From Minisyncoccota bacterium (lineage in GTDB: Bacteria > Patescibacteriota > Minisyncoccia > UBA6257 > GWB1-50-10): DNA of 64,000 bases. How positions within the stretch are numbered: position 1 is the stretch's first letter; each line of letters starts with the position of its first letter. The notes under the pieces are model-generated. The model was given only the letters and a program-made list of their open reading frames with translations. It was not told the DNA's origin and did not search any database. Location: the NCBI GenBank assembly GCA_041917695.1, contig JAYRXE010000037.1, positions 609,013 to 673,012 on the forward strand. The letters run 5' to 3'. This document shows positions 1,766 to 63,432 of this stretch, piece after piece. Position numbers and translations under genes: made by a program.

Positions 1766-3229
1766 TTACTGGAGGCGCGGGAAAAGCGCCTCGATCTTTT
1801 GCACCGTGACCACGCTATCTTTCCGTATAACGCCGGATTGGATTTTCTGCGCCGTCTCAGGAAGGAAGGGAAGCAGTTCGCGGGCGACGGATTCGAGAAT
1901 ATAGACCAAATTCCGCATCACGTTCTTTTTTCCATCCGTGTCTTTTATTTTCCACGGCGCCGTCCGGTTCGCGTATTCATCGCCGAACGAAATGAGTTCC
2001 CAGAGCACCGCAAGCGATTCATTGAAACGAAACGTTTCGCTCTCCTTCCGCACCTTCACCAGCAACTCTTGCGTCCTTTCCGCCACTCCGGAGTCCAACG
2101 CTTCACCTTCCCCGAACGCCATGCCATTGGCGAGCGTCGAAACGCGCGCGGCGAAATTACCGATGCCGTTCGCGAGGTCGGCGTTGTACCTGACCTTGAA
2201 TTTTTCCATGCTGAAATCGCCGTCCTCGTAGGCGGGAATCTCGCGCAGGAGATAGTACCGCACCGCATCGGCGCCGAATTCATTTATAAGCATCATGGGG
2301 TCTACGACGTTTCCAACCGTCTTCGACATTTTCTGCCCTTCGACCGTCACGTAGCCGTGTACGAATTCGCAAGTTGGAAGGGGCAATCCTGCGGACAGGA
2401 GCATCGCCGGCCAATAGGCCGCGTGGAAGCGGATAATTCCCTTCCCGATCACGTGGAGCTTCTCCGCGTCCCCTTCCCAAAATGCCGCATAGGGACCCTC
2501 CTTTTCCGGATAACCCAGTCCCGAGATGTAATTGGCGAGCGCGTCGTACCATACGTACATGGTTTGCGTCTCGTCCTCCGGCACCGGCACGCCCCATCCG
2601 CGGGCGCGGGAAGCCGGACGGGAAACGGAAAAATCCTGGAGGCCGCGGGAAGCGAGCGAAAGGATTTCGTTTTTCCGCGTCTCGGGAACGATGCGGAGCG
2701 TGCCGGTTTCAATCAATTCCTTTATTTTCCCCGAATAGTTCGAGAGCTTGAAAAAATAATTCTCTTCCTCGACTACTTCGAGTTTTTTTCCGGGATGCTC
2801 CGGGCATTCGCCGTTTATGAGTTCATCCGGCGAATAGAAAGCTTCACACCCGGTGCAATAGAGGCCTGAATATGATTTTTTATATATATCTTCCTTTTTC
2901 GTCGCGTTCCATAACGCTTGCGCGGCTTTAACGTGGCGCGGATCGCTCGTGCGGACGAATCCGTCTACCGACACGTTAAGTGCGGCTAAAAGCTCCTCGA
3001 ATTTCTTCGCATTGCGGTCGACGAGCTCCATCACGGTAACGCCCTCCGCTTCTGCGGCGGCGACGTTTTTCATCGCGTTCTCGTCCGCGCCGGAAAGAAA
3101 AAAAACCTCCCGGCCCGCCGCGCGATTCATGCGGGCGAGCGCGTCCGCCTGAACGAACTCAAGCGCATGTCCGATATGCGGCGCCGCGTTCACATACGGA
3201 ATGGCAGTCGTAATAAACAGTTTTTTCAT
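1766..3229 (-). CDS. metG: Methionyl-tRNA synthetase (short form lacking the C-terminal extension)
   Basis: HIGH (PHIGHA) and KMSKS (KMSKT) motifs. CxxC zinc knuckles (CTGC...CPEH) are present. Confidence 0.9.
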   Translation of the reverse strand: MKKLFITTAIPYVNAAPHIGHALEFVQADALARMNRAAGREVFFLSGADENAMKNVAAAEAEGVTVMELVDRNAKKFEELLAALNVSVDGFVRTSDPRHVKAAQALWNATKKEDIYKKSYSGLYCTGCEAFYSPDELINGECPEHPGKKLEVVEEENYFFKLSNYSGKIKELIETGTLRIVPETRKNEILSLASRGLQDFSVSRPASRARGWGVPVPEDETQTMYVWYDALANYISGLGYPEKEGPYAAFWEGDAEKLHVIGKGIIRFHAAYWPAMLLSAGLPLPTCEFVHGYVTVEGQKMSKTVGNVVDPMMLINEFGADAVRYYLLREIPAYEDGDFSMEKFKVRYNADLANGIGNFAARVSTLANGMAFGEGEALDSGVAERTQELLVKVRKESETFRFNESLAVLWELISFGDEYANRTAPWKIKDTDGKKNVMRNLVYILESVARELLPFLPETAQKIQSGVIRKDSVVTVQKIEALFPRLQ

Positions 3230-14006: not shown

Positions 14007-15014
14007 ATGAAAATACTCGCCATCGAAACCTCCTGCGACGAAACCGCGCTTGCCCTTCTTCAGGCGTCAGGCGGTCTTACAAACCCTACATTCGCGCCGA
14101 TTAAAAATATCGTCGCTTCGCAAACCGAGATTCATAAGGCATTCGGGGGCGTCGTTCCCAATCTCGCGAAGCGCGAACATATCCGGACCCTCCCCCTCTT
14201 GTACAAAGAGATCGAGAAAGAACTCCCCGACATGGTCGCCGTCACCGTCGGCCCCGGCCTTGAACCCGCTCTCTGGGCCGGCATCACGTTTGCGGAAACC
14301 GTGCATGCCGAGCTCGTCAAAAAGAAGCGAAGCGTGAAGCTCGTGGGCGCAAACCACTTGGAAGGGCATCTCTGGAGCTTTCTTCTCGACAAGAAAATAA
14401 GCCTCGCAAAAACATTTCCCGCCGTCGCGCTTATCGTTTCCGGCGGACACACCATCCTCCTTTCGATGACATCGCTGACGTCGTGGAAACTGCTCGGAGA
14501 AACGAAAGACGACGCGGTGGGAGAAGCGTTCGACAAAGTGGCGCGCATGTTGAAATTCCCCTACCCGGGCGGGCCCGAAATCCAGAAAGCGGCTGCCGGC
14601 GGAAATCCCTCAATACCTTTCCCCCGCCCGATGCTCGGCACGCGCGATTATTATTTCAGCTTCTCAGGGCTGAAGACATCCGTCTTGTATTATTTGCGGG
14701 ACCATCCGCGCGCCAAAAAAGCCGATGTTGCGGCGTCGTTCCAAACCGCCGCTCTCGACGTACTCGTGAAAAAGACTCTGCGCGCGGCGGAGGAAACGAA
14801 AGCCAAAACAGTCATTCTTTCCGGCGGAGTCGCCGCAAACAAGGCGCTTCGCGAACGGTTAAAGACTGAAACGGACGCGCGGGGCATGCGCTTTCTCGCT
14901 CCGCCGATGGACTTCAACACCGACAACGCCATGATGATAGCGGCCGCCGCGTATCTTCGGCATCTCCGGAAAAAGCCGCTTCCGCTCATGGCAGACGGCA
15001 ATCTGAGCATCTAA
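14007..15014 (+). CDS. tsaD: tRNA N6-adenosine threonylcarbamoyltransferase
   Basis: ILAIETSCDET N-terminus and HxxGH metal site (HLEGH). Kae1/TsaD family. Confidence 0.9.
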   Translation: MKILAIETSCDETALALLQASGGLTNPTFAPIKNIVASQTEIHKAFGGVVPNLAKREHIRTLPLLYKEIEKELPDMVAVTVGPGLEPALWAGITFAETVHAELVKKKRSVKLVGANHLEGHLWSFLLDKKISLAKTFPAVALIVSGGHTILLSMTSLTSWKLLGETKDDAVGEAFDKVARMLKFPYPGGPEIQKAAAGGNPSIPFPRPMLGTRDYYFSFSGLKTSVLYYLRDHPRAKKADVAASFQTAALDVLVKKTLRAAEETKAKTVILSGGVAANKALRERLKTETDARGMRFLAPPMDFNTDNAMMIAAAAYLRHLRKKPLPLMADGNLSI

Positions 15015-15566: not shown

Positions 15567-17690
15567 ATGAAGCTTCCCGACGGCCCGTACAATCCGAAAG
15601 AGACCGAATCCCGCATTTATTCCGCCTGGGAACAGTCGGGCTATTTCAATCCGGACAATCTCCCCGGCGAGCGCCCCGAGACCTACGTGGTTTACATGCC
15701 GCTTCCGAACGTTACCGGCTCCCTCCACATGGGACATGCCTTGAATAATACGCTCCAGGACATCGTCATCCGTTTCCACCGCATGCGCGGAAAGCGGACG
15801 CTCTGGCTCCCCGGCACGGACCACGCGGGCATTTCCACCCAATACGTCGTCGACAAGGCGCTCCGCAAGGAAGGCGTGTCGCGCTTCGAACTGGGCCGGG
15901 AGAAGTTCATCGAGCGCGTTTGGAAATGGAAGGAGGAATACGGGGAGATCATCTACGGACAGCTGCGTAACCTCGGCGTTTCGGCGGACTGGTCGCGCAA
16001 GCGCTTCACGATGGATCCCGCGTATGCCGAGGACGTAATGAAAGCATTCGCCCATTACCACGAAAAAGGCCTCCTCTACCGCGGACTCCGCACGGTAAAC
16101 TGGTGCCCGCGGTGCGGCACCACGCTGTCTGACCTTGAGCTGGAATACGCGGACGAGAAGACGCGTCTGTGGCATTTCATCTACCCGCTCGCGGACGGAA
16201 GCGGAGAGGTTCGCGTCGCGACGACCCGGCCCGAGACGATGCTCGGCGATACGGCGATCGCGGTAAACCCGACCGACCCCCGCTGGAAAGCGCTTATCGG
16301 AAAAACCGTACGACTTCCCATCCAGGAACGCGAGATTCCCATTGTCGGCGACCCGTCAATCGAGACCGAATTCGGCACGGGCGCAGTGAAGGTGACGCCC
16401 GCGCACGACCTTACGGACTTCGAGCTGTCGAAACGCCACAACCTTCCGCTTCTCCAGGTCATCGACGAGCGCGGAAAAATGACGGCGGCTGCCGGCGCCG
16501 AATTCGAAGGATTGAAAACCTCGGAGGCGCGGGAGAAAGTCGTTCAAAAAATGAAAGACTTGGGTTTGTTTGAAAAAGAAGAATCCTACGAACACCGCGT
16601 CACTACCTGCGGGCGTTGCGGGCACGCCATCGAACCCATCCCCTCGATGCAGTGGTTTTTGAAAATGAAAGACTTGGCGGAGAAAGCCCTTGCCGCGGTT
16701 ACGGAGAAAAAAGTTTCCATCCGTCCCGAAAATTTCGAGCGCACCTATATGACCTGGCTCGAAAACGTCCGCGATTGGACCATTTCGCGGCAAATCTGGT
16801 GGGGCCATCGCCTTCCCGTGTGGTTTTGCGAACGGGAGCCCGAAAAATATGCGGTGGCTTCCGAGAAGCCGGCTTCGTGCCCCGTCTGCGGAACCTGCGG
16901 GATGAAGCAATCGGAAGACGTCCTCGACACGTGGTTTTCTTCCGCCCTCTGGCCCTTTGCCGGCTTACGCAAGGAAGACCGCACGCGGTATTATCCGGGA
17001 GACACGCTTATCACGGCGCGCGACATCGTGAATCTCTGGGTCGCCCGCATGGTCTTTTCGGGACTCGAATTCATGGGCGCCGCGCCGTTTTCAAACGTGC
17101 TCATCAACGGCACGATTCTGAACAAAGAAGGCCGGCGCATGTCGAAGTCCCTGGGCACCGGCGTCGACCCGCTGAAATACATCGCGGATTTCGGCGCGGA
17201 CGCGACGCGCTTCGCCGTCGTCTGGCAAGCCACCGGTCAGGACATCAAATGGGATGAAAGCGCCGTCGCCGCCGGAAAGAAATTCATGAACAAATTGTGG
17301 AATGCCGCGAAGTTCGTCCTCGCAAACAGCGAGGGGGTTCCCGCCGGAGAACCCCGCGCGGAAACCGATGCAGACGCCGCAATCCTTTCCGCGCTGGAAA
17401 CCGCGAGAAAGAAAGTGGAATCAGCCATTCTCGATTTCGATATGAGCGAGGGACTGAAGACGCTCTATGATTTCTTTTGGCACGACTTCTGCGACGTCTA
17501 CATCGAAAAATCAAAACCGCAACTTGCCGCGGACGGCACGCGCGAAACTACCGCACGGATACTCCTTCACGTGCTCGCCGAATCCCTCGCGCTTCTTCAC
17601 CCTTATCTTCCCTTCATCACTGAGGAAATCTATGGAGCGCTGCCGGAACGGAACGCCGAGCTCCTGATGGTCGCGGACATACGCGCATGA
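15567..17690 (+). CDS. valS: Valyl-tRNA synthetase (short form lacking the C-terminal coiled-coil)
   Basis: PNVTGSLHMGHA (HIGH region) and RMSKSLGTG (KMSKS). An extended -10-like TGgAAGAAT lies at 15545-15553. Confidence 0.9.
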   Translation: MKLPDGPYNPKETESRIYSAWEQSGYFNPDNLPGERPETYVVYMPLPNVTGSLHMGHALNNTLQDIVIRFHRMRGKRTLWLPGTDHAGISTQYVVDKALRKEGVSRFELGREKFIERVWKWKEEYGEIIYGQLRNLGVSADWSRKRFTMDPAYAEDVMKAFAHYHEKGLLYRGLRTVNWCPRCGTTLSDLELEYADEKTRLWHFIYPLADGSGEVRVATTRPETMLGDTAIAVNPTDPRWKALIGKTVRLPIQEREIPIVGDPSIETEFGTGAVKVTPAHDLTDFELSKRHNLPLLQVIDERGKMTAAAGAEFEGLKTSEAREKVVQKMKDLGLFEKEESYEHRVTTCGRCGHAIEPIPSMQWFLKMKDLAEKALAAVTEKKVSIRPENFERTYMTWLENVRDWTISRQIWWGHRLPVWFCEREPEKYAVASEKPASCPVCGTCGMKQSEDVLDTWFSSALWPFAGLRKEDRTRYYPGDTLITARDIVNLWVARMVFSGLEFMGAAPFSNVLINGTILNKEGRRMSKSLGTGVDPLKYIADFGADATRFAVVWQATGQDIKWDESAVAAGKKFMNKLWNAAKFVLANSEGVPAGEPRAETDADAAILSALETARKKVESAILDFDMSEGLKTLYDFFWHDFCDVYIEKSKPQLAADGTRETTARILLHVLAESLALLHPYLPFITEEIYGALPERNAELLMVADIRA

Positions 17691-35229: not shown

Positions 35230-35376
35230 TTTTCCTTCCGAATAAAGTTTTTAAATTAGAATCAGCTGTATATTAAATACAATTTTTTCTTAAAAAAGTC
35301 AATTACTCCGCCGTTGACGCGCAGGGAAAACACGGGCAGATTGAAGCCAGTAATTAACCAACTAAAAAGGACCAGC

Positions 35377-35952
35377 ATGGAACGTACCAAAGCTAAAAGC
35401 GAAAAAGCATTCGAAGAAAGACTCACATATCTTACCGCGACCTCAAAGCGGAAGCAGGCGCTCTACCGGAAAGGAATCGGTTTTTTCACGAGGCAAAAGA
35501 AACATCCCTTTCTTTTTCCGTGGCTTCTCCGGAAAGCCCGCGAAGAACTCGAGTTCTTCCCCGTCCCCGTACCCCGGAGTGCAGAAGCGAACGAAAGCCG
35601 AAAGCGCCTCACGGTGATTTTCGAGATTTTCACCTTTATCGCTCCCACGGCTCGCCCCGGCGAGATAATCCGCCTCCTGTATCTTCCTGAAATGCTTTTA
35701 CCCGTAAACCACGAATGGGGGATGGTTATTCTGAACATCCTCAAAAAATCCGGAGCCTACCAAGACCTGCGGAAAATTCATGTGTTCATGGAACTTGCCC
35801 GCAAGGTCAAAAATGAAAAATCACGCCGCGCACTGCGCGATGCCTCGCGGGAAGCCGCCCATTCGATCTACCTGCGCGAGCGGGAACGCCCGCTTTCGAC
35901 TGCCCTTCGGAAAGGAATGGAAAACACCTATCGCGCCATACAAAGCTATTAA
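35377..35952 (+). CDS. Hypothetical basic protein
   Basis: ATG at 35377 with AAGG 6 nt upstream. The track ORF starting with TTG at 35314 is probably over-extended. Tandem hairpins lie downstream (35952-35985, 36033-36062). Confidence 0.4.
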   Translation: MERTKAKSEKAFEERLTYLTATSKRKQALYRKGIGFFTRQKKHPFLFPWLLRKAREELEFFPVPVPRSAEANESRKRLTVIFEIFTFIAPTARPGEIIRLLYLPEMLLPVNHEWGMVILNILKKSGAYQDLRKIHVFMELARKVKNEKSRRALRDASREAAHSIYLRERERPLSTALRKGMENTYRAIQSY

Positions 35953-36032
35953 AACCTGCACACGCGGGTTTTTATTTTCATTGAAATCATCTCCGCCGCT
36001 CCCGACCCGATACGGGTTCGAATCCTTGCAAA

Positions 36033-36062
36033 AAAATGCCGGAATAAATCCGGCATTTTGCT
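36033..36062. terminator. Bidirectional terminator (ATGCCGGA-ataa-ATCCGGCAT flanked by A7 and T tracts). It terminates the minus-strand tRNA operon
   Basis: 8-bp stem. The U-tract is on the minus strand directly after the tRNA-Val 3' end. Confidence 0.7.
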
Positions 36063-36065
36063 TTG

Positions 36066-36139
36066 TGGGCGGTCGAGGATTCGAACCCCGGGCCTACTCG
36101 GTGTAAACGAGTCGCTCTAACCAACTGAGCTAACCGCCC
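36066..36139 (-). tRNA. tRNA-Val (anticodon UAC)
   Basis: Manual fold: acceptor GGGCGGT/ACCGCCC, D-arm GCTC-AGTTGGTTA-GAGC, anticodon loop TTTACAC, T-arm CGGGG-TTCGAAT-CCTCG, discriminator A. 74 nt. CCA is not encoded. Confidence 0.85.
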
Positions 36140-36154
36140 GTAACGCCCTTCCGG

Positions 36155-36227
36155 TGGGTCAGGAAGGATTTGAACCTTCGGTCGCCGAGGTATAAGCTCG
36201 GTGCTTTAACCACTAAGCTACTGACCC
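36155..36227 (-). tRNA. tRNA-Ile with anticodon UAU (reads AUA without a lysidine-modified CAU)
   Basis: Manual fold: acceptor GGGTCAG/CTGACCC, D-arm GCTT-AGTGGTTA-AAGC, anticodon stem CCGAG/CTCGG with loop CTTATAC (anticodon positions 34-36 = TAT), T-arm GAAGG-TTCAAAT-CCTTC. 73 nt. Confidence 0.65.
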
Positions 36228-36352: not shown

Positions 36353-37096
36353 GTGTCTATGAAGTATCTCGGCATTACCGGCTTTACCCGCAAAGAGGAA
36401 GTTGAGGAGATCTTATCAGCTCTCCCCGCAACAACCCCTCCCACATCTATCATGATTGGCGTGCTTGCAAGCCAAAACACATTATATGGCGGAAAAGACA
36501 AGTATCCGAACCGCTACCCGTGCGTTACCGATATCGCATCGATTTTTTGCCGCGACAAACGGGCATTGAATCTCATCCATTACCACACCCCAGCCAAAGA
36601 CAATGATTTGCTCGCCGAACTTGAAACCCTCAAGGACCTTAGCGGACCCCTCATGCATGGTTTTCAGTTGAATATCGCATGGCCGAACCCTCTTACCGTT
36701 GAAAAATACGTTCAAAAATATCCCTTCCAAAAAATCGTTTTGCAGGTAGGCGCAAACGCCATGCAACTCGTCGAACACGACCCAGACGAACTCGCCCGCC
36801 GGCTCAAGGCATATGACGGGCTGATTTCTTCGGTACTGCTCGATATGAGCGGCGGCAGGGGAGAGATTCTCGATCCCGCCCAGTTGGGTGATTTTCTTGA
36901 CCGCTTGAACGGGTTCAGCATCGCGGTCGCCGGAGGCCTTTGCACGGAACATCTTCCCGTTATACGCCCGCTTCTTGAACAACACCCCCATCTCTCAATA
37001 GATGCTGAGGGAAAGTTGAGAGATGAGCACGACGTGCTCGATCTCACCGAGACAAAAGCGTACGCTCTCGACGGACTGAAGCTTTTATACCCATAA
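36353..37096 (+). CDS. TIM-barrel-like protein, weakly phosphoribosylanthranilate-isomerase-like; hypothetical
   Basis: AGGAGAAAGAAGG ribosome-binding site. C-terminal LLDMSGGRGE...AVAGGL resembles TrpF phosphate-binding segments. The start is GTG at 36353 or ATG at 36359. Confidence 0.45.
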   Translation: MSMKYLGITGFTRKEEVEEILSALPATTPPTSIMIGVLASQNTLYGGKDKYPNRYPCVTDIASIFCRDKRALNLIHYHTPAKDNDLLAELETLKDLSGPLMHGFQLNIAWPNPLTVEKYVQKYPFQKIVLQVGANAMQLVEHDPDELARRLKAYDGLISSVLLDMSGGRGEILDPAQLGDFLDRLNGFSIAVAGGLCTEHLPVIRPLLEQHPHLSIDAEGKLRDEHDVLDLTETKAYALDGLKLLYP

Positions 37097-37104
37097 AAAT
37101 AAAA

Positions 37105-37131
37105 GGAAAACCCCGCTCTGCGGGGTTTTAC
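37105..37131. terminator. Bidirectional terminator (AAAACCCCG-ctctg-CGGGGTTTT)
   Basis: Between the convergent 36353 gene and ftsH. Confidence 0.7.
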
Positions 37132-37132
37132 G

Positions 37133-38974
37133 TTACGCAAGGGATATCTTTTTGATGCCGAACCCTTCCAGCAACTTGTAAAATTCTTCCTGCTCCAAAG
37201 TTTCCTTTTCCATCAGGGCGTGCGCGATCGCATCGAGCGCCTTACGGTGCGAGGTGAGTATCTTCCGCGCAGTTTCCAATCCTTTTTTGATAAGCCCGCC
37301 CACCTCCTCATCTATCGTAACCGCCACTTTTTCAGAATAATCCTTTTCAGACGCCATCTCGCGGCCCAAGAAAACCATTCCCTGCGACTTCCCGAAAGTG
37401 CGGGGACCGAGCTTTTCGCTCATGCCGTATTGCGTCACCACTTTGTGCGCCATGTCGGTCGCCTGGCGCAGGTCGTTCGAAGAGCCCGTCGATACGTCCT
37501 TGAAGATCAAGGTCTCGGCCGCGAATCCGCCGAATGAAACGGCGAGATCGGATAGAAACTGGCTTTTCGTCCGCAAACGGCGCTCTTCAACCGGCAATTT
37601 CAACGTGTACCCGCCGGCGAAACCGCGGCTCACGATGGTCACCTTATGCACGGGGTCGCTTTCTTCGAGGGTGGCGGCAACGAGCGCATGGCCCGCTTCG
37701 TGATAGGCTGTGACGAGCTTTTCATGCTCCGTGATGGTGCGCGATTTTCGGGCGGGACCCAAGAGGACTTTCTCGATGGAATCCAAGATGTCTTCCTGCG
37801 TCACTTTCTTGCGGTTATGGCGCGCGGCATAGAGCGCCGCCTCATTCATGAGGTTTGCAAGCTCGGCGCCCGCAAAACCCGGCGTACGCACCGCGACCGT
37901 CCGAAGATCCACATCGTCAGACAAGGGCTTTCCCTTCGCGTGTATTTTCAAAATCGCTTCGCGATCGTTTATGTCCGGCATATCGAGCATGACCCGGCGA
38001 TCGAATCTTCCGGGCCGCAGAAGCGCGGCGTCTAGCACGTCAGGCCGGTTTGTCGCCGCCATCACGATGACATTCGTATCGCGGTCGAAACCGTCCATCT
38101 CGACGAGGATTTGGTTCAATGTCTGCTCCCGCTCGTCGTGGCCCCCGCCTAAACCCGTTCCACGTTCGCGCCCGACGGCGTCTATTTCATCGATGAAGAC
38201 GATCGAAGGCGCCGATTTTTTCGCGACCTGGAAGAGGTCGCGGACGCGGGAGGCTCCCACGCCGACAAACATTTCCACGAATTCGGACGCGGACAAGTGG
38301 AAGAAGGGGACGCCCGATTCTCCGGCGACCGCGCGGGCGAGAAGCGTTTTCCCCGTACCCGGCGAACCCATGAGAAGAACGCCGCGGGGGATTTTGGCGC
38401 CCATGTCCAAAAATTTTTTGGGGTTGCGGAGGAAGTCGACGATTTCCTCAAGCTCCTCCTTCGCTTCGCGAAGTCCGGCGACCTCCTTGAAGGTGACGCG
38501 GTCCTTATCCGGAGCGGAGATGCGGAGATTCGCTTTGCCGAAGGTGAACGCCTGGTTCACCCCGCCCTTTGCCTGCCGGAAGAGAAAGAAGAATATCGCC
38601 ATCATCACAATAAGGGGCAGGAGCGAGGGGATTAACAGGCTCGCCCAGTATTTCGTACCGCCCGGCTCCTCGATGCGGAGTTCCACCGATTTCAATTTTT
38701 CCGCATCCACTGCGTAATTCACGAGCGTCTCGGTGAGCCCCACATTCGGCTCTTTCTGCGCCGTCGTCTTCGTATCGTCGGCGAACGTCACGTCGAGCTC
38801 ATCTCCCTTCACGAGGATGCGCTTCACGCTTCCTTCGTTTATCTTCTGCGCAAGCGCATTCAAAGAAATCGATTCAGACGCGGGAGATGCGCCGTCGAGG
38901 AAAAAAGAAAAAAGGGTCGTTGCAAAAAAAAGGATGAGAATCGCAAAAAGGAGGTTTTTACTTAAATTTTTCAT
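37133..38974 (-). CDS. ftsH: ATP-dependent zinc metalloprotease FtsH
   Basis: Walker A (GSPGTGKT), SRH, and HEAGHAL zinc site. The start is assigned to the Met that gives the typical [13 protein letters not shown]... N-terminus. The track start at 39016 is 14 codons further upstream. Confidence 0.9.
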
Positions 38975-39041
38975 GTAATCGGTTGTTTCGGTAGCCCTAT
39001 CATAACGCATGAGCACCTAAAAACAAACCGGGTGCGTAAAA

Positions 39042-39089: not shown

Positions 39090-40193
39090 TTATTCGGCGA
39101 GCTTGAGGAGGATTTTGCGCTCTTCAGGCTTCGAAGAAACGACGACAAAGGAGTATTCCTTCCCCTGGGCGAGTTTCTTTTTCATTTCTTCAGCGGAACC
39201 GAAATCGGAAACGTGCACCTGGCCCTGGATCTCGCCGGCAAGGTTCACGATGGCGCCGTAGGGGTGCATGCCGTAGACGACCCCCGTCACCGTCTCGCCC
39301 TCGGCGTATTTTCCTTTCACATCAAGCCACGGATCGGTCTTTAACGCCTTCAACGAGAGCGAAATCTTTCCGTCCTTTATTTCGACGATCTTCGCCTTCA
39401 CTTCCTCGTCCACTTTCACCACTTCCTTCGGATTTTCGACGATGCGGTACGAAAGCTCGGACACGTGGATGAGCCCCTCGATAGCCGGATTGTCCGCAAA
39501 CCGGACAAATACGCCGAAGTCGGCGATGCCGGAAACGATGCCGGTGATGGTCTGCCCTTCGGCATAGTTCGCCAAGAGCTCTTTCGTGCTCAGTTCCTTC
39601 GTCGCGCGCTCGGAAATAATGAGTTTCTTCGTGCGGGGGTTCACGTCAATAAGCTTCACTTCAAGTTCTTTGCCCACGAGCGTGGAAAGCGCAGTCTGCA
39701 AATCATCCTTGTTTTCAAAAACGCTCTTCCCTTCGAAACCCGTCTCAAGCTGGGACACGGGCAGGAACGCCTGCAATCCCTTCAAGTCGGCGGTAAGCCC
39801 GCCCTTGTTGAAGCCGGCTATCTTCACCTTGAAGCTTTCTTCCTTCTCCTTCAGTTCGGAAACCAACTCCCATGACTTCTGCTTGTCGGCTTCGGTGAGG
39901 GAAAGTTCAATGTACCCGTCCTCGTTGTCGATGCGCACCACTTTCGCGGACACTTCGGAACCTTCAGAGAGATTCCTCACGATTTCCCGGGCGTTCTGCA
40001 TCTCCCCGCGGTAAACCGCGCCGACGCCGTAGGCGCCCAAATCGAGCGTCATGAGGCGCACGCCTTTTTCGATGACCTTCCCCTTCACCAGGTCCCCCTG
40101 GCGGAGCATGCGGAACGAATTCAATTCCTCCTTCGCCGCTTCGGGCAGGTTTTTGCCGTTGTCTTTTATCTCGGTTGCTGAAACGATAGCCAT
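39090..40193 (-). CDS. rpsA: 30S ribosomal protein S1 (four S1 domains, short form)
   Basis: Repeated S1/OB-fold modules (GxV...G.V.....GAIV/FGVFV motifs). Confidence 0.85.
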   Translation of the reverse strand: MAIVSATEIKDNGKNLPEAAKEELNSFRMLRQGDLVKGKVIEKGVRLMTLDLGAYGVGAVYRGEMQNAREIVRNLSEGSEVSAKVVRIDNEDGYIELSLTEADKQKSWELVSELKEKEESFKVKIAGFNKGGLTADLKGLQAFLPVSQLETGFEGKSVFENKDDLQTALSTLVGKELEVKLIDVNPRTKKLIISERATKELSTKELLANYAEGQTITGIVSGIADFGVFVRFADNPAIEGLIHVSELSYRIVENPKEVVKVDEEVKAKIVEIKDGKISLSLKALKTDPWLDVKGKYAEGETVTGVVYGMHPYGAIVNLAGEIQGQVHVSDFGSAEEMKKKLAQGKEYSFVVVSSKPEERKILLKLAE

Positions 40194-43924: not shown

Positions 43925-45220
43925 ATGCAAAAATTCAATCTTAAATACCTCGTTTTCGGCATTGCCGGCCTCTTTGTGCTTTTCGTCGCATTGGTTTTCA
44001 CGGGTGTCATCCCCGGCCTCCGCGAAAAAGCCGACAAGCCCACTGTTACGGGATCAATCACCGTATGGACGGTAGGGGAGGAAACGCGCGACCGTGAAAA
44101 AGCCTGGAAAGACCTGGTGAAATCGTTTCAGGGGACCTACCCCGGCGTGAAAGTCGAGAGCAGGAATTTCCGCACCTACGAATCGTATGAAAACGCCCTC
44201 GCGGATTCCTTCGGCTCCGGAGAGACTCCCGACGTCTTTATGGTTTCGAACACGGCATTCCCCCGGTACGAGAACAAGCTTGCCCCGGCGCCCGCCTCGC
44301 TCTTTTCCCTTGAATCGCTCCGCGCTCTCTTTCCAAAAACCGTTGAGAACGACTTCGTTTCAGAGGGGAAAATCTATGCGCTTCCGCTCTCGATCGACAC
44401 GCTCGCCCTCATTTATAACCGGAATCTCATCGACCAGGCCGCCGTTGCCGTCCCGAAAACCTGGGCTGAATTTGAAAGCGCCGTTCCGCAACTCACCCGC
44501 GCGGACGTGTCGGGTATCCAGTCCGCAGGCGCGGCGATTGGCACCGCCGGAAACGTTCCGTATGCCGCAGACATCATTTCGCTCCTCATGCTCCAGCGAA
44601 ACATTCCCATGACCGCGGGAAGCCGTGCGGTTTTCAACACCGCCCCGGGAAAAGACGCGCTGGGGTTCTACACGCAATTCGCCGACCGTGCAGGCGCCGC
44701 ATATTCCTGGAATGAAACCATGCCCCAGGCGACGGATTTCTTCGCCCAGGAAAAAGTGGGCATGCTGATCGGCTATCGCTCGACGATCGATGCGCTGAAA
44801 TCGAAGAATTCATTCCTGGATATCGGCGTCGCTGAAATTCCTTCCGATAGCGCTTCGTCCAAAAAATCTTTCGCCCGCTACATGGCTCTCGCCGTCTCAA
44901 AGCAGTCAAAAAGCCAGCCGGCGGCATGGGCGTTCGTATCAGCCGTCTCCACGAACGAAACGTGGCTCAAACCGTACTTGGCCCTCACGAAAGAAGCTCC
45001 CGCCCTCCGTTCCCTCGCCCTTCTTTCGAAAGACGACCCGGCTATCGGCGTATTTTCACGGCAGGCGCTTACGGCTACGACCTGGAAACAGGCGGACGAC
45101 CGCGCTGTCGCGAGCGCCTTTCAGGCGATGATCGAAAGCGTGAATACGAACGAGAAAACGCCGGAGCGGGCCCTTGATGACGCAGCCGCGGAGATCTCCC
45201 GCTCGATGCAAAAAAAATAA
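43925..45220 (+). CDS. Extracellular solute-binding protein (carbohydrate-type ABC substrate-binding fold) with an N-terminal TM anchor; no adjacent permease genes
   Basis: SBP_bac_1-like length and composition. It sits alone, followed by the pilin-like array. Confidence 0.55.
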   Translation: MQKFNLKYLVFGIAGLFVLFVALVFTGVIPGLREKADKPTVTGSITVWTVGEETRDREKAWKDLVKSFQGTYPGVKVESRNFRTYESYENALADSFGSGETPDVFMVSNTAFPRYENKLAPAPASLFSLESLRALFPKTVENDFVSEGKIYALPLSIDTLALIYNRNLIDQAAVAVPKTWAEFESAVPQLTRADVSGIQSAGAAIGTAGNVPYAADIISLLMLQRNIPMTAGSRAVFNTAPGKDALGFYTQFADRAGAAYSWNETMPQATDFFAQEKVGMLIGYRSTIDALKSKNSFLDIGVAEIPSDSASSKKSFARYMALAVSKQSKSQPAAWAFVSAVSTNETWLKPYLALTKEAPALRSLALLSKDDPAIGVFSRQALTATTWKQADDRAVASAFQAMIESVNTNEKTPERALDDAAAEISRSMQKK

Positions 45221-45224
45221 TCCT

Positions 45225-45704
45225 ATGCGCACCCTCATTTCACTCTTCTTTTTTTCACTAATCGCCCTTACCGCCGCTGTTCCTGCCGCCGCTCTCGCCC
45301 AGACGGGAAACGAAAGCATCACCAACATTTGGCGAGGCACGGGAAACGGAACAATCACCTGCAATCAGCGGGGCATGCAGTGCACGCTTTGCGACGGCAT
45401 CCGCGTTGCGAAGAATGTCACTGAATTTCTTACGGTGATTGCCGTCGCCCTTGCCGTCCTCATTATCATGTACGGCGCGCTCCGCATGATGACGTCTGGC
45501 GGAAATGAGAACTGGCTCTCTGCGGGGAAGGAGGCGATTCTTAAGGCACTCCTCGGCCTCGCCATCGTCGCCGCCTCGTGGCTCATCGTCGACACGGTAT
45601 TCAAGGCGCTTACTGAGAACGAAACGTGGAATTCGTTCGACCCGATTGGGTGCAAGAATGGCGCATTTATCCAGAATCCTCCGAAGGGGAACCAAAATCC
45701 GTAA
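45225..45704 (+). CDS. Pilin-like small secreted protein, paralog 1 (VirB2/TrbC-like topology: signal peptide, two hydrophobic helices flanking a GG-charged loop)
   Basis: Signal peptide ...AAALA|QTG. Helix, then RMMTSGGNENWLSAGKEA, then helix. The start is assigned to the ATG at 45225. Confidence 0.5.
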   Translation: MRTLISLFFFSLIALTAAVPAAALAQTGNESITNIWRGTGNGTITCNQRGMQCTLCDGIRVAKNVTEFLTVIAVALAVLIIMYGALRMMTSGGNENWLSAGKEAILKALLGLAIVAASWLIVDTVFKALTENETWNSFDPIGCKNGAFIQNPPKGNQNP

Positions 45705-45727
45705 CGGCTCTTCGGTATACTGAATAT

Positions 45728-46078
45728 ATGGAAAAGAATACCCCGAGAACGATTCCCCACGGCGCACGGCGTTTCTTCGCAGGCATTCCCTTCGTGTACG
45801 CCCAGGCGCCGGAAAGTATTGAACTCAGAAATCCGCTTGCAGCGGGAAACGACCTTGAATCGGTTTTGAAATCGGTCGGCGATTGGCTCATCCTCATCGC
45901 GACGCCGATTGCCATTTTCATGATTCTCGTCGGCGCGTTTTGGATACTCGTATCGGGAGGGGAGCCGGACAAGATTAAAAAAGGCAAGCAGACAATATTG
46001 TGGACCCTTATTGGCTATGCTATACTCTTGCTTGGAACTGAAATAGCCAATCTTATTTCAGGATTTTTCAGTCAATAG
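45728..46078 (+). CDS. Pilin-like small secreted protein, paralog 2
   Basis: Signal peptide ...VYA|QAP. ...ILVGAFWILVSGGEPDKIKKGKQTILWTLIGYAILLL... Confidence 0.5.
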   Translation: MEKNTPRTIPHGARRFFAGIPFVYAQAPESIELRNPLAAGNDLESVLKSVGDWLILIATPIAIFMILVGAFWILVSGGEPDKIKKGKQTILWTLIGYAILLLGTEIANLISGFFSQ

Positions 46079-46106
46079 AAAGGTCGGAGCAATTCAAACC
46101 CATTTC

Positions 46107-46457
46107 ATGAAGAAAGTATTTGCATTCGTATCCGTTTTCGCGATAGTCATGAGCCTCGCCTCGGTCGCGAGCGCGCAGTTTGGAGGCACGGCGACGTTCG
46201 TCACCGGCATCACCGGCATCGGCGGCGTCCAGAGCGTGCTTGAGAAAATCTCGACGTGGTTTCTCACCATCGTCATCGCACTTTCCGTTCTTTTCTTCGT
46301 TTATGCAGGTTTCCTTTACGTAACCTCCGGCGGAGACGATGACAAGGTCAAAAACGCCAAGAACTTTCTCCTCTACGGCGTCATCGGCATTGCGGTCGCG
46401 CTTCTCGCCGCGGCAATCACGAACGTCGTTCAGGGTCTTGTCGGCGAAACCGCCTAA
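46107..46457 (+). CDS. Pilin-like small secreted protein, paralog 3
   Basis: Signal peptide ...VASA|QFG. ...LFFVYAGFLYVTSGGDDDKVKNAKNFLLYGVIGIAVALL... Confidence 0.5.
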   Translation: MKKVFAFVSVFAIVMSLASVASAQFGGTATFVTGITGIGGVQSVLEKISTWFLTIVIALSVLFFVYAGFLYVTSGGDDDKVKNAKNFLLYGVIGIAVALLAAAITNVVQGLVGETA

Positions 46458-46479
46458 GGCACCCTTCTGAAGTACCGCT

Positions 46480-46800
46480 ATGCGTCTTCTAAAAGCACTT
46501 TCCTGCATAACGATCCTCGCCCTCTGCCTTGCGCCGGTAGTAGCCGGTGCGCAAAGCGGGGATCCGTTGCCGAGCCGCGTCGTAACGCTTGTTGACCGGG
46601 CGCAATCATGGTTTCTCAACATCATCATCAGCATCTCGGTCATTATGATTCTCGTCGGCGCATTCTACTTCGTCACCGCAGGCGGGGACGAAGACAAGGT
46701 TGAAACGGCGAAGAAATATATTCTCTACGCCGCCGTCGGCCTTGCCATCGCGCTCCTGGCGAAGGCAATCGTCGAAATCGTGCAAAGCTTCGTCGCATAA
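46480..46800 (+). CDS. Pilin-like small secreted protein, paralog 4
   Basis: Signal peptide ...VAGA|QSG. ...ILVGAFYFVTAGGDEDKVETAKKYILYAAVGLAIALL... Confidence 0.5.
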   Translation: MRLLKALSCITILALCLAPVVAGAQSGDPLPSRVVTLVDRAQSWFLNIIISISVIMILVGAFYFVTAGGDEDKVETAKKYILYAAVGLAIALLAKAIVEIVQSFVA

Positions 46801-46889: not shown

Positions 46890-46974
46890 GCTGGGGTGGC
46901 GGAATTGGCAGACGCGCAAGGCTTAGGACCTTGTGAGAGTTTCTCTCGTGGGAGTTCAAGTCTCCCCCCTAGCA
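46890..46974 (+). tRNA. tRNA-Leu (anticodon UAG), class II with a long variable arm
   Basis: Manual fold: acceptor GCTGGGG/CCCTAGC (one G-U), anticodon stem CAAGG/CCTTG with loop CTTAGGA, 15-nt variable arm, T-arm GGGAG-TTCAAGT-CTCCC, discriminator A. 85 nt. Confidence 0.85.
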
Positions 46975-46981
46975 CAAAACC

Positions 46982-62922: not shown

Positions 62923-63432
62923 ATGTCCACGTTCCAGGTTCCCCAGTTCGTTGACCAAAAGCCGAAGATTATCGGCTCTTTGAATATGGTGCAGTTCGGT
63001 TATATCGCAGTGGCCGGACTCATCATTTTCGGGCTCTACTACGTATTCAATCTTTTCGTGTGGATAATCGTCGCCCTTCCCATTGCCGGCGTCGCCGGCT
63101 TTCTCGCCTTCGCAAAGATCAACGGCCAGGAATCGCATAAAATCCTCGGTTCGATGCTGAGCTTCGTCGGGGGCTCAAAGACCTACGTGTGGCAGCGGCC
63201 GTCGCCGAAGGTCGTCGACCCCGTCGCCCAAACGTCCATTGAGAAAGCGCGGCATTCGATGAGCATCCAGGAAAAGATAAAATCCATCGCCCTCCACGTG
63301 ACAACCGGCAACGCCTTTGCAAAAGGCAAGGCGGCCCCGGAAGAACCGGGTATCGTGCGCGAAAAACCGGGATTCGAAGTTGCTACCTTTGAAACCGGCG
63401 AGGAAAAACTGGTAAAGCGCGTGGATTACTAG
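62923..63432 (+). CDS. PrgI/VirB3-like small membrane protein (two adjacent TM helices)
   Basis: QFVDQKPKIIG followed by two TM helices (YIAVAGLIIFGLYYVF, VWIIVALPIAGVAGFLAFA), as in PrgI-family proteins that precede VirB4 genes. Confidence 0.4.
   Translation: MSTFQVPQFVDQKPKIIGSLNMVQFGYIAVAGLIIFGLYYVFNLFVWIIVALPIAGVAGFLAFAKINGQESHKILGSMLSFVGGSKTYVWQRPSPKVVDPVAQTSIEKARHSMSIQEKIKSIALHVTTGNAFAKGKAAPEEPGIVREKPGFEVATFETGEEKLVKRVDY

What the first reader, a model, noticed from the sequence alone, without database searches (positions are those of the whole stretch)
36155..36227. tRNA-Ile with a genomically encoded UAU anticodon
Hand-folding gives a canonical cloverleaf (7-bp acceptor, GG-containing D-loop, TTCAAAT T-loop). 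The anticodon loop is CTTATAC, so positions 34-36 are T-A-T. Most bacteria decode AUA with a CAU-anticodon tRNA modified to lysidine by TilS. A UAU tRNA-Ile is known in only a few lineages and implies either loss of tilS or a second AUA-decoding route. It is co-transcribed with tRNA-Val(UAC) from a minus-strand operon.
Basis: partly seen in the sequence, partly recalled or inferred. Interest (0 to 1): 0.55.

Follow-up and report, generated by a model that had tools for sequence, protein, structure and literature searches.

The report
AUA-reading isoleucine tRNA in a CPR bacterium
This is a genuine, functional-looking isoleucine tRNA with a gene-encoded UAU anticodon. Textbooks call this rare in bacteria, but here it belongs to an ultra-small "CPR/Patescibacteria" bacterium, a group in which the gene is widespread and sits at a fixed spot beside ftsH.

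Summary
ARAGORN and Rfam (77 bits, full length) call a tRNA-Ile with anticodon TAT at 36155-36227 on the minus strand. A tRNA-Val(TAC) follows after a 13-nt spacer, and then a strong terminator hairpin.

The host is a Patescibacteria (CPR) bacterium of the Paceibacteria/Minisyncoccia type. ATA is an ordinary isoleucine codon here: 8.3 per 1000 codons, present in 34 of 36 genes, with Ile or Val at those positions in homologues.

About two thirds of the hits were CPR genomes. In 42 of the 43 scan loci that also hold ftsH, the tRNA lies 3' of ftsH, usually within 250 nt. Across 71 distinct CPR copies the cloverleaf is 99.3% paired, with massive compensatory change.

TilS normally sits just 5' of ftsH. 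That held in 42 of 80 control tilS loci and in the CPR bacterium Southlakia. TilS was absent from that position in all 29 CPR genomes that carry this tRNA. This suggests replacement of the lysidine system, but I could not read the rest of this genome, so tilS loss remains an inference.

It is a new member of a known kind. The lineage-wide picture is the interesting part.

The parts
36155..36227 (-). tRNA-Ile gene with anticodon TAT (UAU). Discriminator A73. The two bases after A73 are CC followed by G, so at least A76 must be added after transcription.
   Evidence: ARAGORN. Rfam RF00005, 77.2 bits, full length. Cloverleaf is the minimum-free-energy fold. Family covariation.
36066..36139 (-). 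tRNA-Val gene with anticodon TAC (UAC), 13 nt downstream of tRNA-Ile. Probably the second gene of one transcript.
   Evidence: ARAGORN. Rfam, 70.2 bits. An Ile(tat)-Val pair recurs in 16 of 124 loci. It is 96% identical to the tRNA-Val of relative L126.
36028..36061 (-). Intrinsic-terminator-like hairpin (AUGCCGGA-UUUAU-UCCGGCAU) followed by U7, directly after tRNA-Val.
   Evidence: strand folding: -18.1 kcal/mol, z = -4.37, 0 of 200 shuffles fold as well. The simple consensus scan did not list it.
36353..37096 (+). ORF of unknown function (247 aa as an open frame; a 214-aa gene is called on the JGI contig). It sits on the opposite strand between ftsH and the tRNA pair. It is missing in the nearest relative, where the tRNA starts about 50 nt after ftsH.
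   Evidence: No Pfam or NCBIfam hit. Gene call in L124. Comparison with L126/L127.
37107..37129 (-). Terminator-like hairpin directly after the ftsH stop codon.
   Evidence: scan_promoters_terminators.
37133..39010 (-). ftsH (ATP-dependent zinc metalloprotease), the conserved upstream anchor of the tRNA-Ile(UAU) gene throughout CPR.
   Evidence: TIGR01241, 794 bits. Pfam. 100% identical to P0121, 625 aa. Linkage analysis.
39090..40193 (-). S1-domain RNA-binding protein immediately upstream of ftsH. It occupies the position where tilS (and hpt) sit in many other bacteria.
   Evidence: Pfam S1 x3. The same gene lies upstream of ftsH in relatives. The ORFs upstream of ftsH in Saccharibacteria loci L107 and L108 look S1-like by eye; they were not scanned against Pfam.
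14007..15014 (+). TsaD (t6A37 synthesis). Inferred partner only: tRNAs that read ANN codons normally carry t6A at A37.
   Evidence: Pfam PF00814, 239 bits. The link to this tRNA rests on established knowledge and was not tested.

Best explanation
The gene encodes a functional elongator tRNA-Ile whose unedited anticodon UAU pairs directly with the isoleucine codon AUA.

Proposed steps:
- It is probably transcribed together with tRNA-Val(UAC) and ends at the hairpin-plus-U7 terminator.
- It is processed, and its 3' end is completed by the CCA- or A-adding enzyme.
- It probably receives t6A37 (TsaD is in the window).
- It is charged by an IleRS that tolerates U34.
- It supplies the decoder for the roughly 8 ATA codons per 1000 that this genome uses in nearly every gene.

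It is not a one-off. The gene is a conserved trait of Patescibacteria/CPR and is anchored just 3' of ftsH across several CPR classes.

The most likely evolutionary reading is an inference. In these lineages the tRNA has replaced the usual bacterial system, which is tRNA-Ile2(CAU) plus the lysidine synthetase TilS. TilS normally sits just 5' of ftsH, and that position is empty here. I put roughly 0.6 on tilS being absent from this genome.

How AUG misreading by U34 is avoided is unknown. It could be a U34 modification, or a ribosome property as in Mycoplasma mobile.
For: **Shown**
- tRNA call, score and fold.
- Across 71 distinct CPR copies, 99.3% of stem cells pair. There are 460 compensatory cells, against 144 expected. 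The covariation score is 0.78 against 0.17. No shuffle out of 500 reached the observed values for pairing, compensatory cells or covariation score, and slid registers collapse to about 40% paired.
- U8, A9, G10, C11, U12, A14, A23, G24, C25 and A73 are invariant and were not fixed by the search pattern. U12-A23 and A73 are IleRS identity elements in E. coli (my own knowledge).
- ATA makes up 121 of 942 Ile codons, or 8.25 per 1000 codons, and occurs in 34 of 36 curated genes. At the 9 ATA positions of GyrA and FtsH, 118 homologues show I 69-80%, V 12-25% and M 3% or less.
- The host is CPR: GyrA and FtsH relatives are Patescibacteria, Jorgensenbacteria and Minisyncoccia.
- The pattern scan of 185,579 species genomes stopped at 119 loci. 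All 119 are called tRNA-Ile(tat) by ARAGORN (60; all 119 in the local run). Seventy-two carry CPR names, and at least 5 more unnamed loci share the CPR arrangement.
- ftsH is present in 43 of these loci, and in 42 of them the tRNA is 3' of ftsH. In 29 it is within 250 nt, mostly on the same strand. Relatives L126, L128 and L129 show the same.
- No TilS or PP-loop domain was found in the window or in about 1 Mb of these loci, using tblastn, a 3-sequence HMM and the SGGxDS motif. None lies upstream of ftsH in the 29 distinct CPR genomes with at least 0.9 kb of upstream sequence.
- Control: 42 of 80 tilS loci from metagenomes have ftsH just downstream.
- Southlakia epibionticum (Saccharibacteria) has tilS directly 5' of ftsH and mviN 5 nt after ftsH, with no tRNA there. 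It has three tRNA-Met genes and one tRNA-Ile.

**From the literature**
- M. mobile tRNA-Ile(UAU) is unmodified, needs an adapted IleRS (R865) and relies on its own ribosome to reject AUG.
- Bifidobacterium and Neorickettsia, which lack tilS, use a eukaryote-type IleRS.
- In the stored part of its annotation table, the IleRS of a cultured class relative, Minisyncoccus, carries PF19302 among its Pfam hits.
Against: - Only about 10% of the genome is readable. tilS, a tRNA-Ile2(CAU) gene and ileS could lie elsewhere.
- At least one CPR bacterium (Southlakia) does have TilS, so CPR is not uniformly TilS-free.
- Some bacteria carry both systems: Lactobacillus casei, Cyanothece and Ferrimonas.
- The census is biased.
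- The 29 genomes are phylogenetically related, so they are not independent trials.
- No sigma-70-like promoter was found upstream of the tRNA on the minus strand.
- Expression, charging and the modification state of U34 are untested.
Confidence: 0.85

Rival explanations
1. Redundant decoder. The genome keeps tilS and tRNA-Ile2(CAU) elsewhere, and tRNA-Ile(UAU) is a second, parallel route for AUA, as proposed for Lactobacillus casei, Cyanothece and Ferrimonas.
For: Co-occurrence is documented in some bacteria. TilS exists in at least one CPR genome. tilS is reported in about 98% of annotated bacterial genomes. About 90% of this genome was not readable.
Against: tilS is absent from its usual place 5' of ftsH in this genome, in its relatives and in 29 CPR genomes that carry the tRNA. 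That linkage holds in at least 52% of control loci. The one CPR genome known to have tilS there shows no tRNA after ftsH and has the canonical three CAU tRNAs. CAU tRNAs found next to tRNA-Ile(UAU) in CPR loci fall into only two kinds, initiator-like and elongator-like, and none exceeds 67% identity to the window's UAU tRNA. In the tRNAscan-SE 2.0 survey, the UAU tRNA occurs instead of Ile2 in 17 bacterial genomes.
Confidence: 0.3
2. Imported or mobile tRNA. The gene came from a phage or another mobile element and is incidental to the host's decoding.
For: Several non-CPR bacterial hits sit in tRNA arrays (L026, L060). The window's tRNA-Ile is only 73% identical to that of its nearest relative at the same locus, while the adjacent tRNA-Val is 96% identical. 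An insertion of about 850 nt separates it from ftsH in this genome only.
Against: The position 3' of ftsH is conserved across CPR classes. No viral copy exceeds 79% identity to the window's tRNA, and none lies beside a real ftsH; the only hit in the viral loci is a weak AAA-domain match of 31% identity over 215 aa. No phage genes flank it; the neighbours are ftsH, an S1 protein, an M3 peptidase and gyrA. GC content is unremarkable. A local replacement by a copy from another CPR bacterium remains possible, but it would not change the function.
Confidence: 0.07
3. Pseudogene, or a tRNA of another identity. For example, it could be charged with Met so that AUA means Met, as in some mitochondria.
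For: None specific. Position 38 is C and pairs 4-69 and 29-41 differ from the E. coli tRNA-Ile identity set (the identity set is from my own knowledge).
Against: It has the highest tRNA score in the window. Pairing is perfect and covariation is strong. ATA positions align with Ile or Val, and with Met in 3% or less of homologues. A73 and U12-A23 are invariant in the family. MetRS identity depends on a CAU anticodon.
Confidence: 0.02

Closest known systems
Mycoplasma mobile tRNA-Ile2(UAU) (Taniguchi et al. 2013, PMC3575796)
   Same: A bacterial, genomically encoded UAU anticodon in a canonical tRNA-Ile, in a small-genome organism that uses AUA as Ile. It is the only such bacterial system studied biochemically.
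   Different: M. mobile is a Mollicute that demonstrably lacks tilS. Its U34 is shown to be unmodified, its IleRS is a bacterial type adapted by R865, and its ribosome rejects AUG. None of these four points could be tested here. In addition, the CPR gene has a conserved genomic anchor (ftsH) and is spread over a whole superphylum rather than one species.
Bifidobacterium and Neorickettsia tRNA-Ile(UAU) with eukaryote-type IleRS
   Same: tilS-less bacteria that use tRNA-Ile(UAU). A cultured relative of this organism's class (Minisyncoccus) has an IleRS annotated with PF19302. From memory, this domain marks the archaeal/eukaryote-type C-terminus.
   Different: The IleRS of this genome was not seen, and the phyla are unrelated.
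Nanoarchaeum equitans / Korarchaeum and DPANN-type archaeal tRNA-Ile(UAU)
   Same: Ultra-small, host-dependent organisms that use a UAU tRNA in place of the CAU tRNA and its C34-modifying enzyme. Twelve archaeal genomes turned up in the same scan.
   Different: In the archaeal loci the tRNA sits next to ileS (7 of 12 loci), not next to ftsH. The enzyme replaced would be TiaS (agmatidine), not TilS.
Canonical bacterial tRNA-Ile2(CAU) + TilS (lysidine) system
   Same: The same job: reading AUA as Ile without reading AUG. The genomic neighbourhood is also shared: tilS lies 5' of ftsH in 42 of 80 control loci and in Southlakia.
   Different: The anticodon is UAU, not CAU. No C34, no lysidine and no TilS are needed. 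The gene lies 3' rather than 5' of ftsH.
Bacillus subtilis delta-tilS suppressor tRNA (Fabret 2011; Kohrer 2014, PMC3919564) and eukaryotic tRNA-Ile(UAU, psi-A-psi)
   Same: These show that a UAU-anticodon tRNA-Ile can sustain AUA decoding.
   Different: The B. subtilis case is a laboratory mutant of tRNA-Ile1. The eukaryotic tRNA carries pseudouridines at positions 34 and 36, which are unknown here.

Membership tests
tRNA (Rfam RF00005), elongator type | Cloverleaf with a 7-bp acceptor stem, D, anticodon and T arms, and conserved U8, A14, G18G19 and T-loop. | tested here: met
   77.2 bits against a gathering score of 29, model positions 1-71. ARAGORN. The minimum-free-energy fold is the cloverleaf.
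Bacterial tRNA-Ile(UAU) ('tRNA-Ile3') | Genomically encoded T-A-T at positions 34-36. | tested here: met
   Anticodon loop CTTATAC. Identical in a second contig of the same organism, L124.
Bacterial tRNA-Ile(UAU) ('tRNA-Ile3') | Isoleucine identity: charged by IleRS, so that AUA is read as Ile. | tested here: inconclusive
   Indirect support only. A73 and U12-A23 are invariant in 78 CPR copies. ATA sites align with Ile or Val in homologues. Aminoacylation itself cannot be tested here.
Bacterial tRNA-Ile(UAU) ('tRNA-Ile3') | Replaces tRNA-Ile2(CAU), and tilS is absent from the genome (as in M. mobile, Bifidobacterium and Neorickettsia). | not testable with these tools
   Only 64 kb of about 680 kb is readable. 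There is no tilS and no CAU tRNA in the window. tilS is missing from the ftsH-upstream position. The last protein search returned only Omnitrophota TilS.
Bacterial tRNA-Ile(UAU) ('tRNA-Ile3') | An IleRS able to accept U34: Arg at the E. coli W905 position, or a eukaryote-type enzyme. | not testable with these tools
   ileS is not in the window. The only hint is PF19302 on the IleRS of Minisyncoccus.
Bacterial tRNA-Ile(UAU) ('tRNA-Ile3') | Under selection as a working gene, not a decaying copy. | tested here: met
   99.3% paired, with compensatory changes in 16 of 21 pairs. No shuffle out of 500 reached the observed pairing, compensatory-cell count or covariation score.
tRNA-Ile2(CAU) / TilS lysidine system | CAT anticodon whose C34 is converted to lysidine. 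| tested here: not met
   Position 34 is T.
Phage-borne accessory tRNA | Located in a prophage or tRNA array, with phage genes alongside. | tested here: not met
   The neighbours are ftsH, an S1 protein, an M3 peptidase and gyrA. Synteny is conserved across CPR. The best viral copy is 79% identical, and none lies beside a real ftsH.

The most novel reading that the evidence does not exclude
Most Patescibacteria/CPR lineages, a superphylum holding a large share of bacterial diversity, decode AUA with a genomically encoded tRNA-Ile(UAU). The gene is anchored directly 3' of ftsH. These lineages have lost the supposedly near-universal TilS/tRNA-Ile2(CAU) lysidine system, which ancestrally sat 5' of the same gene. 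A minority, such as Southlakia, retain the canonical system. That would make lysidine-free AUA decoding a major bacterial strategy rather than a handful of exceptions. It would also predict CPR-specific adaptations of IleRS and the ribosome (or a U34 modification) that prevent AUG misreading.
Probability: 0.45. Interest if true: 0.7.

Novelty: new member of a known kind. Interest (0 to 1): 0.5.

Why it matters
AUA/AUG discrimination is a classic problem of the genetic code. The field still describes TilS as essential and nearly universal in bacteria, and UAU-anticodon tRNA-Ile as a rarity.

If the CPR-wide pattern seen here holds up in whole genomes, a large branch of bacteria solves the problem differently. 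That would have several consequences:
- TilS would be a poorer 'universal' antibacterial target and marker than assumed.
- Name-based counts of TilS would need checking. One Prokka 'TilS' in a CPR genome is really a sugar amidotransferase-like PP-loop protein.
- Cultivable CPR strains would become natural systems for asking how a ribosome or a U34 modification keeps a UAU anticodon off AUG.

For this single window the result is more modest. It is a well-supported, ordinary member of that lineage's tRNA set.

Tried and rejected
1. **TilS in the window and fetched loci.** I used tblastn with E. coli TilS, an HMM built from the E. coli, Geobacillus and Aquifex N-domains, and the SGGxDS motif. Nothing turned up. 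With about 1 Mb sampled at random, this alone is weak: about one copy would be expected.

2. **Finding a CPR TilS seed through ftsH neighbourhoods of Paceibacteria relatives.** None has tilS nearby.

3. **Metagenome scan with a TilS alignment.** It gave 80 loci, which were useful as a synteny control. None is demonstrably CPR: the best FtsH identity to CPR copies is 58-63%.

4. **Last protein-database search, with three short TilS seeds.** I hoped to see a hit on the 679,953-bp contig. It returned only Omnitrophota TilS and is uninformative.

5. **Cluster and contig look-ups to name the organism or reach the NCBI contig.** They gave no names and only short JGI or Logan contigs.

6. **Literature.** No paper in the library links Patescibacteria/CPR with tilS, lysidine or AUA decoding. 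The supplementary table of Taniguchi 2013 is not held, and Suzuki & Numata 2014 is not held.

7. **Minisyncoccus annotation table.** It is cut when stored and lacks several expected tRNAs, so it cannot show presence or absence of tRNA-Ile(tat) or tilS.

8. **tRNA-Ile(UAU) as a recent C34-to-U34 derivative of a neighbouring CAU tRNA.** Rejected: no CAU tRNA exceeds 72% identity to it.

9. **tRNA-Ile(UAU) evolving generally faster than its neighbour tRNA-Val.** Only weakly supported overall: 72.7% versus 78.4% mean identity for Val(tac), and no difference for Val(gac).

10. **A conserved gene downstream of the tRNA, such as mviN.** Rejected: the downstream genes vary.

11. **My first codon count.** It used a shadow ORF over the MetRS gene. 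I redid it on 36 curated genes.

Full report
**1. Is it there?**

Yes. ARAGORN reports three tRNA genes in the window. One is tRNA-Ile with anticodon (tat) at 36153-36227 on the minus strand, and tRNA-Val (tac) follows at 36065-36139. Rfam's tRNA model matches 36155-36227 over its whole length at 77.2 bits (gathering score 29, E = 3e-15). This is the best tRNA score in the window.

- a 7-bp acceptor stem (G1-C72 to G7-C66);
- U8 and A9;
- a 4-bp D stem and a GG-containing D loop;
- a 5-bp anticodon stem and the loop CUUAUAC;
- a 5-nt variable loop;
- a 5-bp T stem and the loop UUCAAAU;
- discriminator A73.

The sequence folds into this cloverleaf unaided (-26.7 kcal/mol, z = -3.5). After A73 the DNA reads CC-G, so at least the terminal A is added post-transcriptionally.

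A second, independent contig of the same organism from a JGI metagenome carries the identical tRNA pair (L124).

**2. Local anatomy**

The two tRNAs are 13 nt apart on the same strand. They are followed by a strong hairpin plus U7 (-18.1 kcal/mol, z = -4.4). One transcript is therefore the natural reading, but it is inferred. No sigma-70-like promoter was found on that strand.

Upstream on the same strand lies ftsH (37133-39010), which has its own terminator-like hairpin. Between ftsH and the tRNAs sits an opposite-strand ORF without any family match (36353-37096). Further upstream is an S1-domain protein, and gyrA lies beyond it.

The window also holds MetRS (1766-3229, minus strand), GlyRS, ValRS and TsaD. 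It holds no IleRS, no TilS and no CAU-anticodon tRNA.

**3. Whose genome?**

GyrA and FtsH are 100% identical to database proteins whose longest contig is 679,953 bp. The next relatives (81-83%, then 63-70%) are unnamed or named Patescibacteria, Minisyncoccia, Paceibacterota, Jorgensenbacteria and Brennerbacteria.

The host is thus an ultra-small CPR bacterium of the Paceibacteria/Minisyncoccia type. Its GC content is about 55%.

**4. Is the tRNA needed?**

In 36 genes with family support, ATA occurs 121 times. That is 8.25 per 1000 codons and 12.8% of isoleucine codons, in 34 of 36 genes. ftsH alone contains 8.

At the nine ATA positions of GyrA and FtsH, 118 homologues each show Ile in 69-80% of cases, Val in 12-25% and Met in at most 3%. 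This is the same profile as at ATT and ATC positions, and unlike ATG positions. So ATA means isoleucine here and needs a decoder.

**5. How unusual is it?**

The literature calls it rare in bacteria:
- 19 species in tRNADB-CE;
- 17 genomes (Bifidobacterium, Mycoplasma, Neorickettsia) in the tRNAscan-SE 2.0 survey;
- 'rare cases' in a 2026 preprint;
- tilS in about 98% of annotated genomes.

I scanned one genome per species (185,579 genomes) for AGC-N6-CTTATA-N14-GGTTCRAATCC. All 119 are called tRNA-Ile(tat) by ARAGORN (60; all in the local run).

By record title the hits break down as follows:

| Group | Loci |
|---|---|
| Patescibacteria (Saccharibacteria, Paceibacteria and relatives, Microgenomates groups, WWE3, Peribacteria, Dojkabacteria and others) | 72 |
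| Unnamed, but sharing the CPR gene arrangement | at least 5 |
| Archaea, largely DPANN-type | 12 |
| Chloroflexota | 5 |
| Remainder, scattered | the rest |

Some of the scattered hits sit in tRNA arrays that look mobile. One locus labelled 'Gammaproteobacteria' carries tRNAs nearly identical to those of a Patescibacteria locus (L016 versus L003), so such labels are unreliable.

The pattern fixes part of the D and T arms, and the scan was truncated. No prevalence can therefore be quoted. The enrichment for CPR is nonetheless large, and the T-arm motif used is the commonest one in bacteria.

**6. It is a conserved, selected gene**

I aligned 78 CPR copies (71 distinct). All 21 base pairs of the cloverleaf are kept in 99.3% of cells. 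Sixteen pairs show changes on both sides, and 460 cells are compensatory, against 144 expected from shuffles. The covariation score is 0.78 against 0.17. No shuffle out of 500 reached the observed pairing, compensatory-cell count or covariation score. Sliding the 3' partners by 1-3 columns drops pairing to 23-45%.

Invariant positions that the search pattern did not force include U8, A9, G10, C11, U12, A14, A23, G24, C25 and A73. U12-A23 and A73 belong to the E. coli tRNA-Ile identity set (my own knowledge). Position 38 is C in 57 of 81 copies and A in 22.

**7. A fixed address next to ftsH**

This was the unexpected result. ftsH is present in 43 of the 119 scan loci. In 42 of them the tRNA lies 3' of ftsH. 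In 29 it is within about 250 nt, mostly on the same strand.

The same holds in relatives fetched through FtsH itself. The distances are 53 nt in L126, 20 nt in L128 and 10 nt in L129, where the tRNA is on the opposite strand.

The arrangement spans Saccharibacteria, Paceibacteria-type groups, and loci named Nomura-, Taylor-, Niyogi-, Azam- and Yanofskybacteria. The loci are fixed 8-kb blocks, so many misses are simply cut off. tRNA-Val follows the tRNA in 16 of 124 loci.

In the window the distance to ftsH is 909 nt, because of the extra ORF that the 83% relative lacks.

**8. Where is TilS?**

In many bacteria tilS(-hpt)-ftsH is one gene cluster. As a control I fetched 80 tilS loci from metagenomes. 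At least 42 have ftsH just downstream on the same strand, and many have a CAU tRNA just upstream.

A published gene table gives one CPR example. In the Saccharibacterium Southlakia epibionticum, TilS (SEML1_0730) lies directly 5' of FtsH (0729), and mviN starts 5 nt after ftsH, so there is no tRNA there. The genome has three tRNA-Met genes and one tRNA-Ile, which is the canonical set.

The CPR genomes that carry tRNA-Ile(UAU) look different. In all 29 distinct genomes with at least 0.9 kb readable upstream of ftsH, no TilS-like gene is there. No PP-loop domain occurs anywhere in about 1 Mb of these loci. The upstream genes I inspected by eye look like S1-domain proteins, an ArgRS-like protein, a TrpRS-like protein and others.

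Where CAU tRNAs lie next to tRNA-Ile(UAU) in CPR loci, they are of two kinds only, initiator-like and elongator-like.

Together this favours two alternative states at one locus: tilS 5' of ftsH, or tRNA-Ile(UAU) 3' of ftsH. That would mean replacement of the lysidine system. It does not prove that tilS is absent from the rest of this genome, and I could not read that. My last database search, seeded with short TilS sequences from the metagenome loci, returned only Omnitrophota enzymes.

**9. Mechanism**

- Shown: a canonical, selected tRNA gene with anticodon UAU, and a genome that uses ATA for Ile.
- Inferred from established knowledge: U34-A pairing reads AUA directly, A37 is expected to carry t6A (TsaD is in the window), and the 3' end needs completion.
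- Inferred from the M. mobile precedent: IleRS must accept U34, which E. coli IleRS does not do efficiently. Something must also keep U34 from reading AUG, either a modification or a ribosome property.
- A hint that CPR IleRS is of the archaeal/eukaryote-like type comes from the Minisyncoccus annotation (PF19302). Bifidobacterium and Neorickettsia, which lack tilS, have such enzymes. This was not tested for the present genome.

**10. Rivals**

- Redundancy with a TilS system located elsewhere remains possible (about 0.3).
- Phage or mobile origin is unlikely as a general explanation, given the conserved address. Viral contigs do carry many tRNA-Ile(tat) genes, but none exceeds 79% identity to this one and none lies beside a real ftsH.
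- There is a local oddity. The window's tRNA-Ile is only 73% identical to that of its 83%-FtsH relative, while the adjacent tRNA-Val is 96% identical. The closest copies (80-81%) come from two Saccharibacteria loci and one Ignavibacteria MAG. Together with the inserted ORF, this suggests a local replacement or unusually fast drift of this copy.
- A pseudogene or a non-Ile identity is contradicted.

**11. Verdict**

The finding is real and correctly interpreted. It is a new member of a known kind, bacterial tRNA-Ile(UAU).

What raises it above routine is the context. The gene is widespread and syntenic in the CPR superphylum. I found no paper in the searchable library connecting CPR with tilS, lysidine or AUA decoding. 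The pattern also suggests that a large bacterial clade may decode AUA without lysidine.

That broader claim is testable with whole genomes and rests for now on synteny, so I score interest at 0.5.

Noticed in passing
L028, L040, L041, L088, L104 (tRNA within about 300 nt of ileS); L110, L116 (1-3 kb): In 7 of 12 archaeal (DPANN-type, e.g. Iainarchaeum) loci from the same scan, tRNA-Ile(UAU) lies just upstream of an IleRS gene on the same strand. This is a different conserved address from the CPR one.
   Followed up: partly
window 36153-36227 versus L126:11892-11966; window 36065-36139 versus L126:11981-12055: At the same locus, the window's tRNA-Ile(UAU) is only 73% identical to that of the nearest relative (FtsH 83% identical), while the adjacent tRNA-Val(UAC) is 96% identical. 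The window copy has the rare U13-A22 D-stem pair. Its best matches are two Saccharibacteria copies and one from an Ignavibacteria MAG (80-81%). This could be a local gene replacement or fast drift.
   Followed up: partly
window 36353-37096 (+) and 35314-35952 (+): Two ORFs without any Pfam or NCBIfam match flank the tRNA pair. The first is an insertion between ftsH and the tRNAs that is absent in the 83% relative.
   Followed up: no
window 1766-3229 (-): The real gene here is a 487-aa MetRS (PF09334, E = 4e-102). The longer + strand ORF 1022-2869 is a shadow ORF with no family hit.
   Followed up: yes
window 15567-17690 (+): The ValRS is only 707 aa. It matches the valS models up to about position 700 of 860 and so lacks the usual C-terminal extension.
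   Followed up: no
L130-L209 (metagenome tilS loci): A CAU-anticodon tRNA gene lies within about 500 nt upstream of tilS in many non-CPR loci (e.g. L134, L148, L174, L179, L194, L204, L206, L208). I did not determine whether it is the TilS substrate tRNA-Ile2 or tRNA-Met.
   Followed up: partly
Literature: Minisyncoccus archaeiphilus gene PMX_810_sub_00091 (PMC10936435, Table S2): A gene named 'tRNA(Ile)-lysidine synthase' by Prokka has no K04075 assignment. Its best match is an N-acetyl sugar amidotransferase (a PP-loop protein). Name-based TilS counts in CPR may therefore be inflated.
   Followed up: no
window 45174-46643 and 62923-63432; also L123, L126, L128, L129: A cluster of small T4SS-pilin genes (PF18895, TrbC-like) lies next to gyrA and a solute-binding protein, conserved in relatives. 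A PrgI-family gene sits at the window's end. This fits the CPR type IV secretion and conjugation-like machinery.
   Followed up: no
window 36065-36227 and 46890-46975: All three tRNAs in the window have U at position 34 (Ile-UAU, Val-UAC, Leu-UAG).
   Followed up: no
L211-L330 (IMG/VR viral contigs): At least 120 viral contigs match the same tRNA-Ile(UAU) pattern, and 118 are confirmed by ARAGORN. Phage-borne UAU tRNA-Ile genes are therefore common, which may explain the scattered non-CPR bacterial hits in tRNA arrays.
   Followed up: partly
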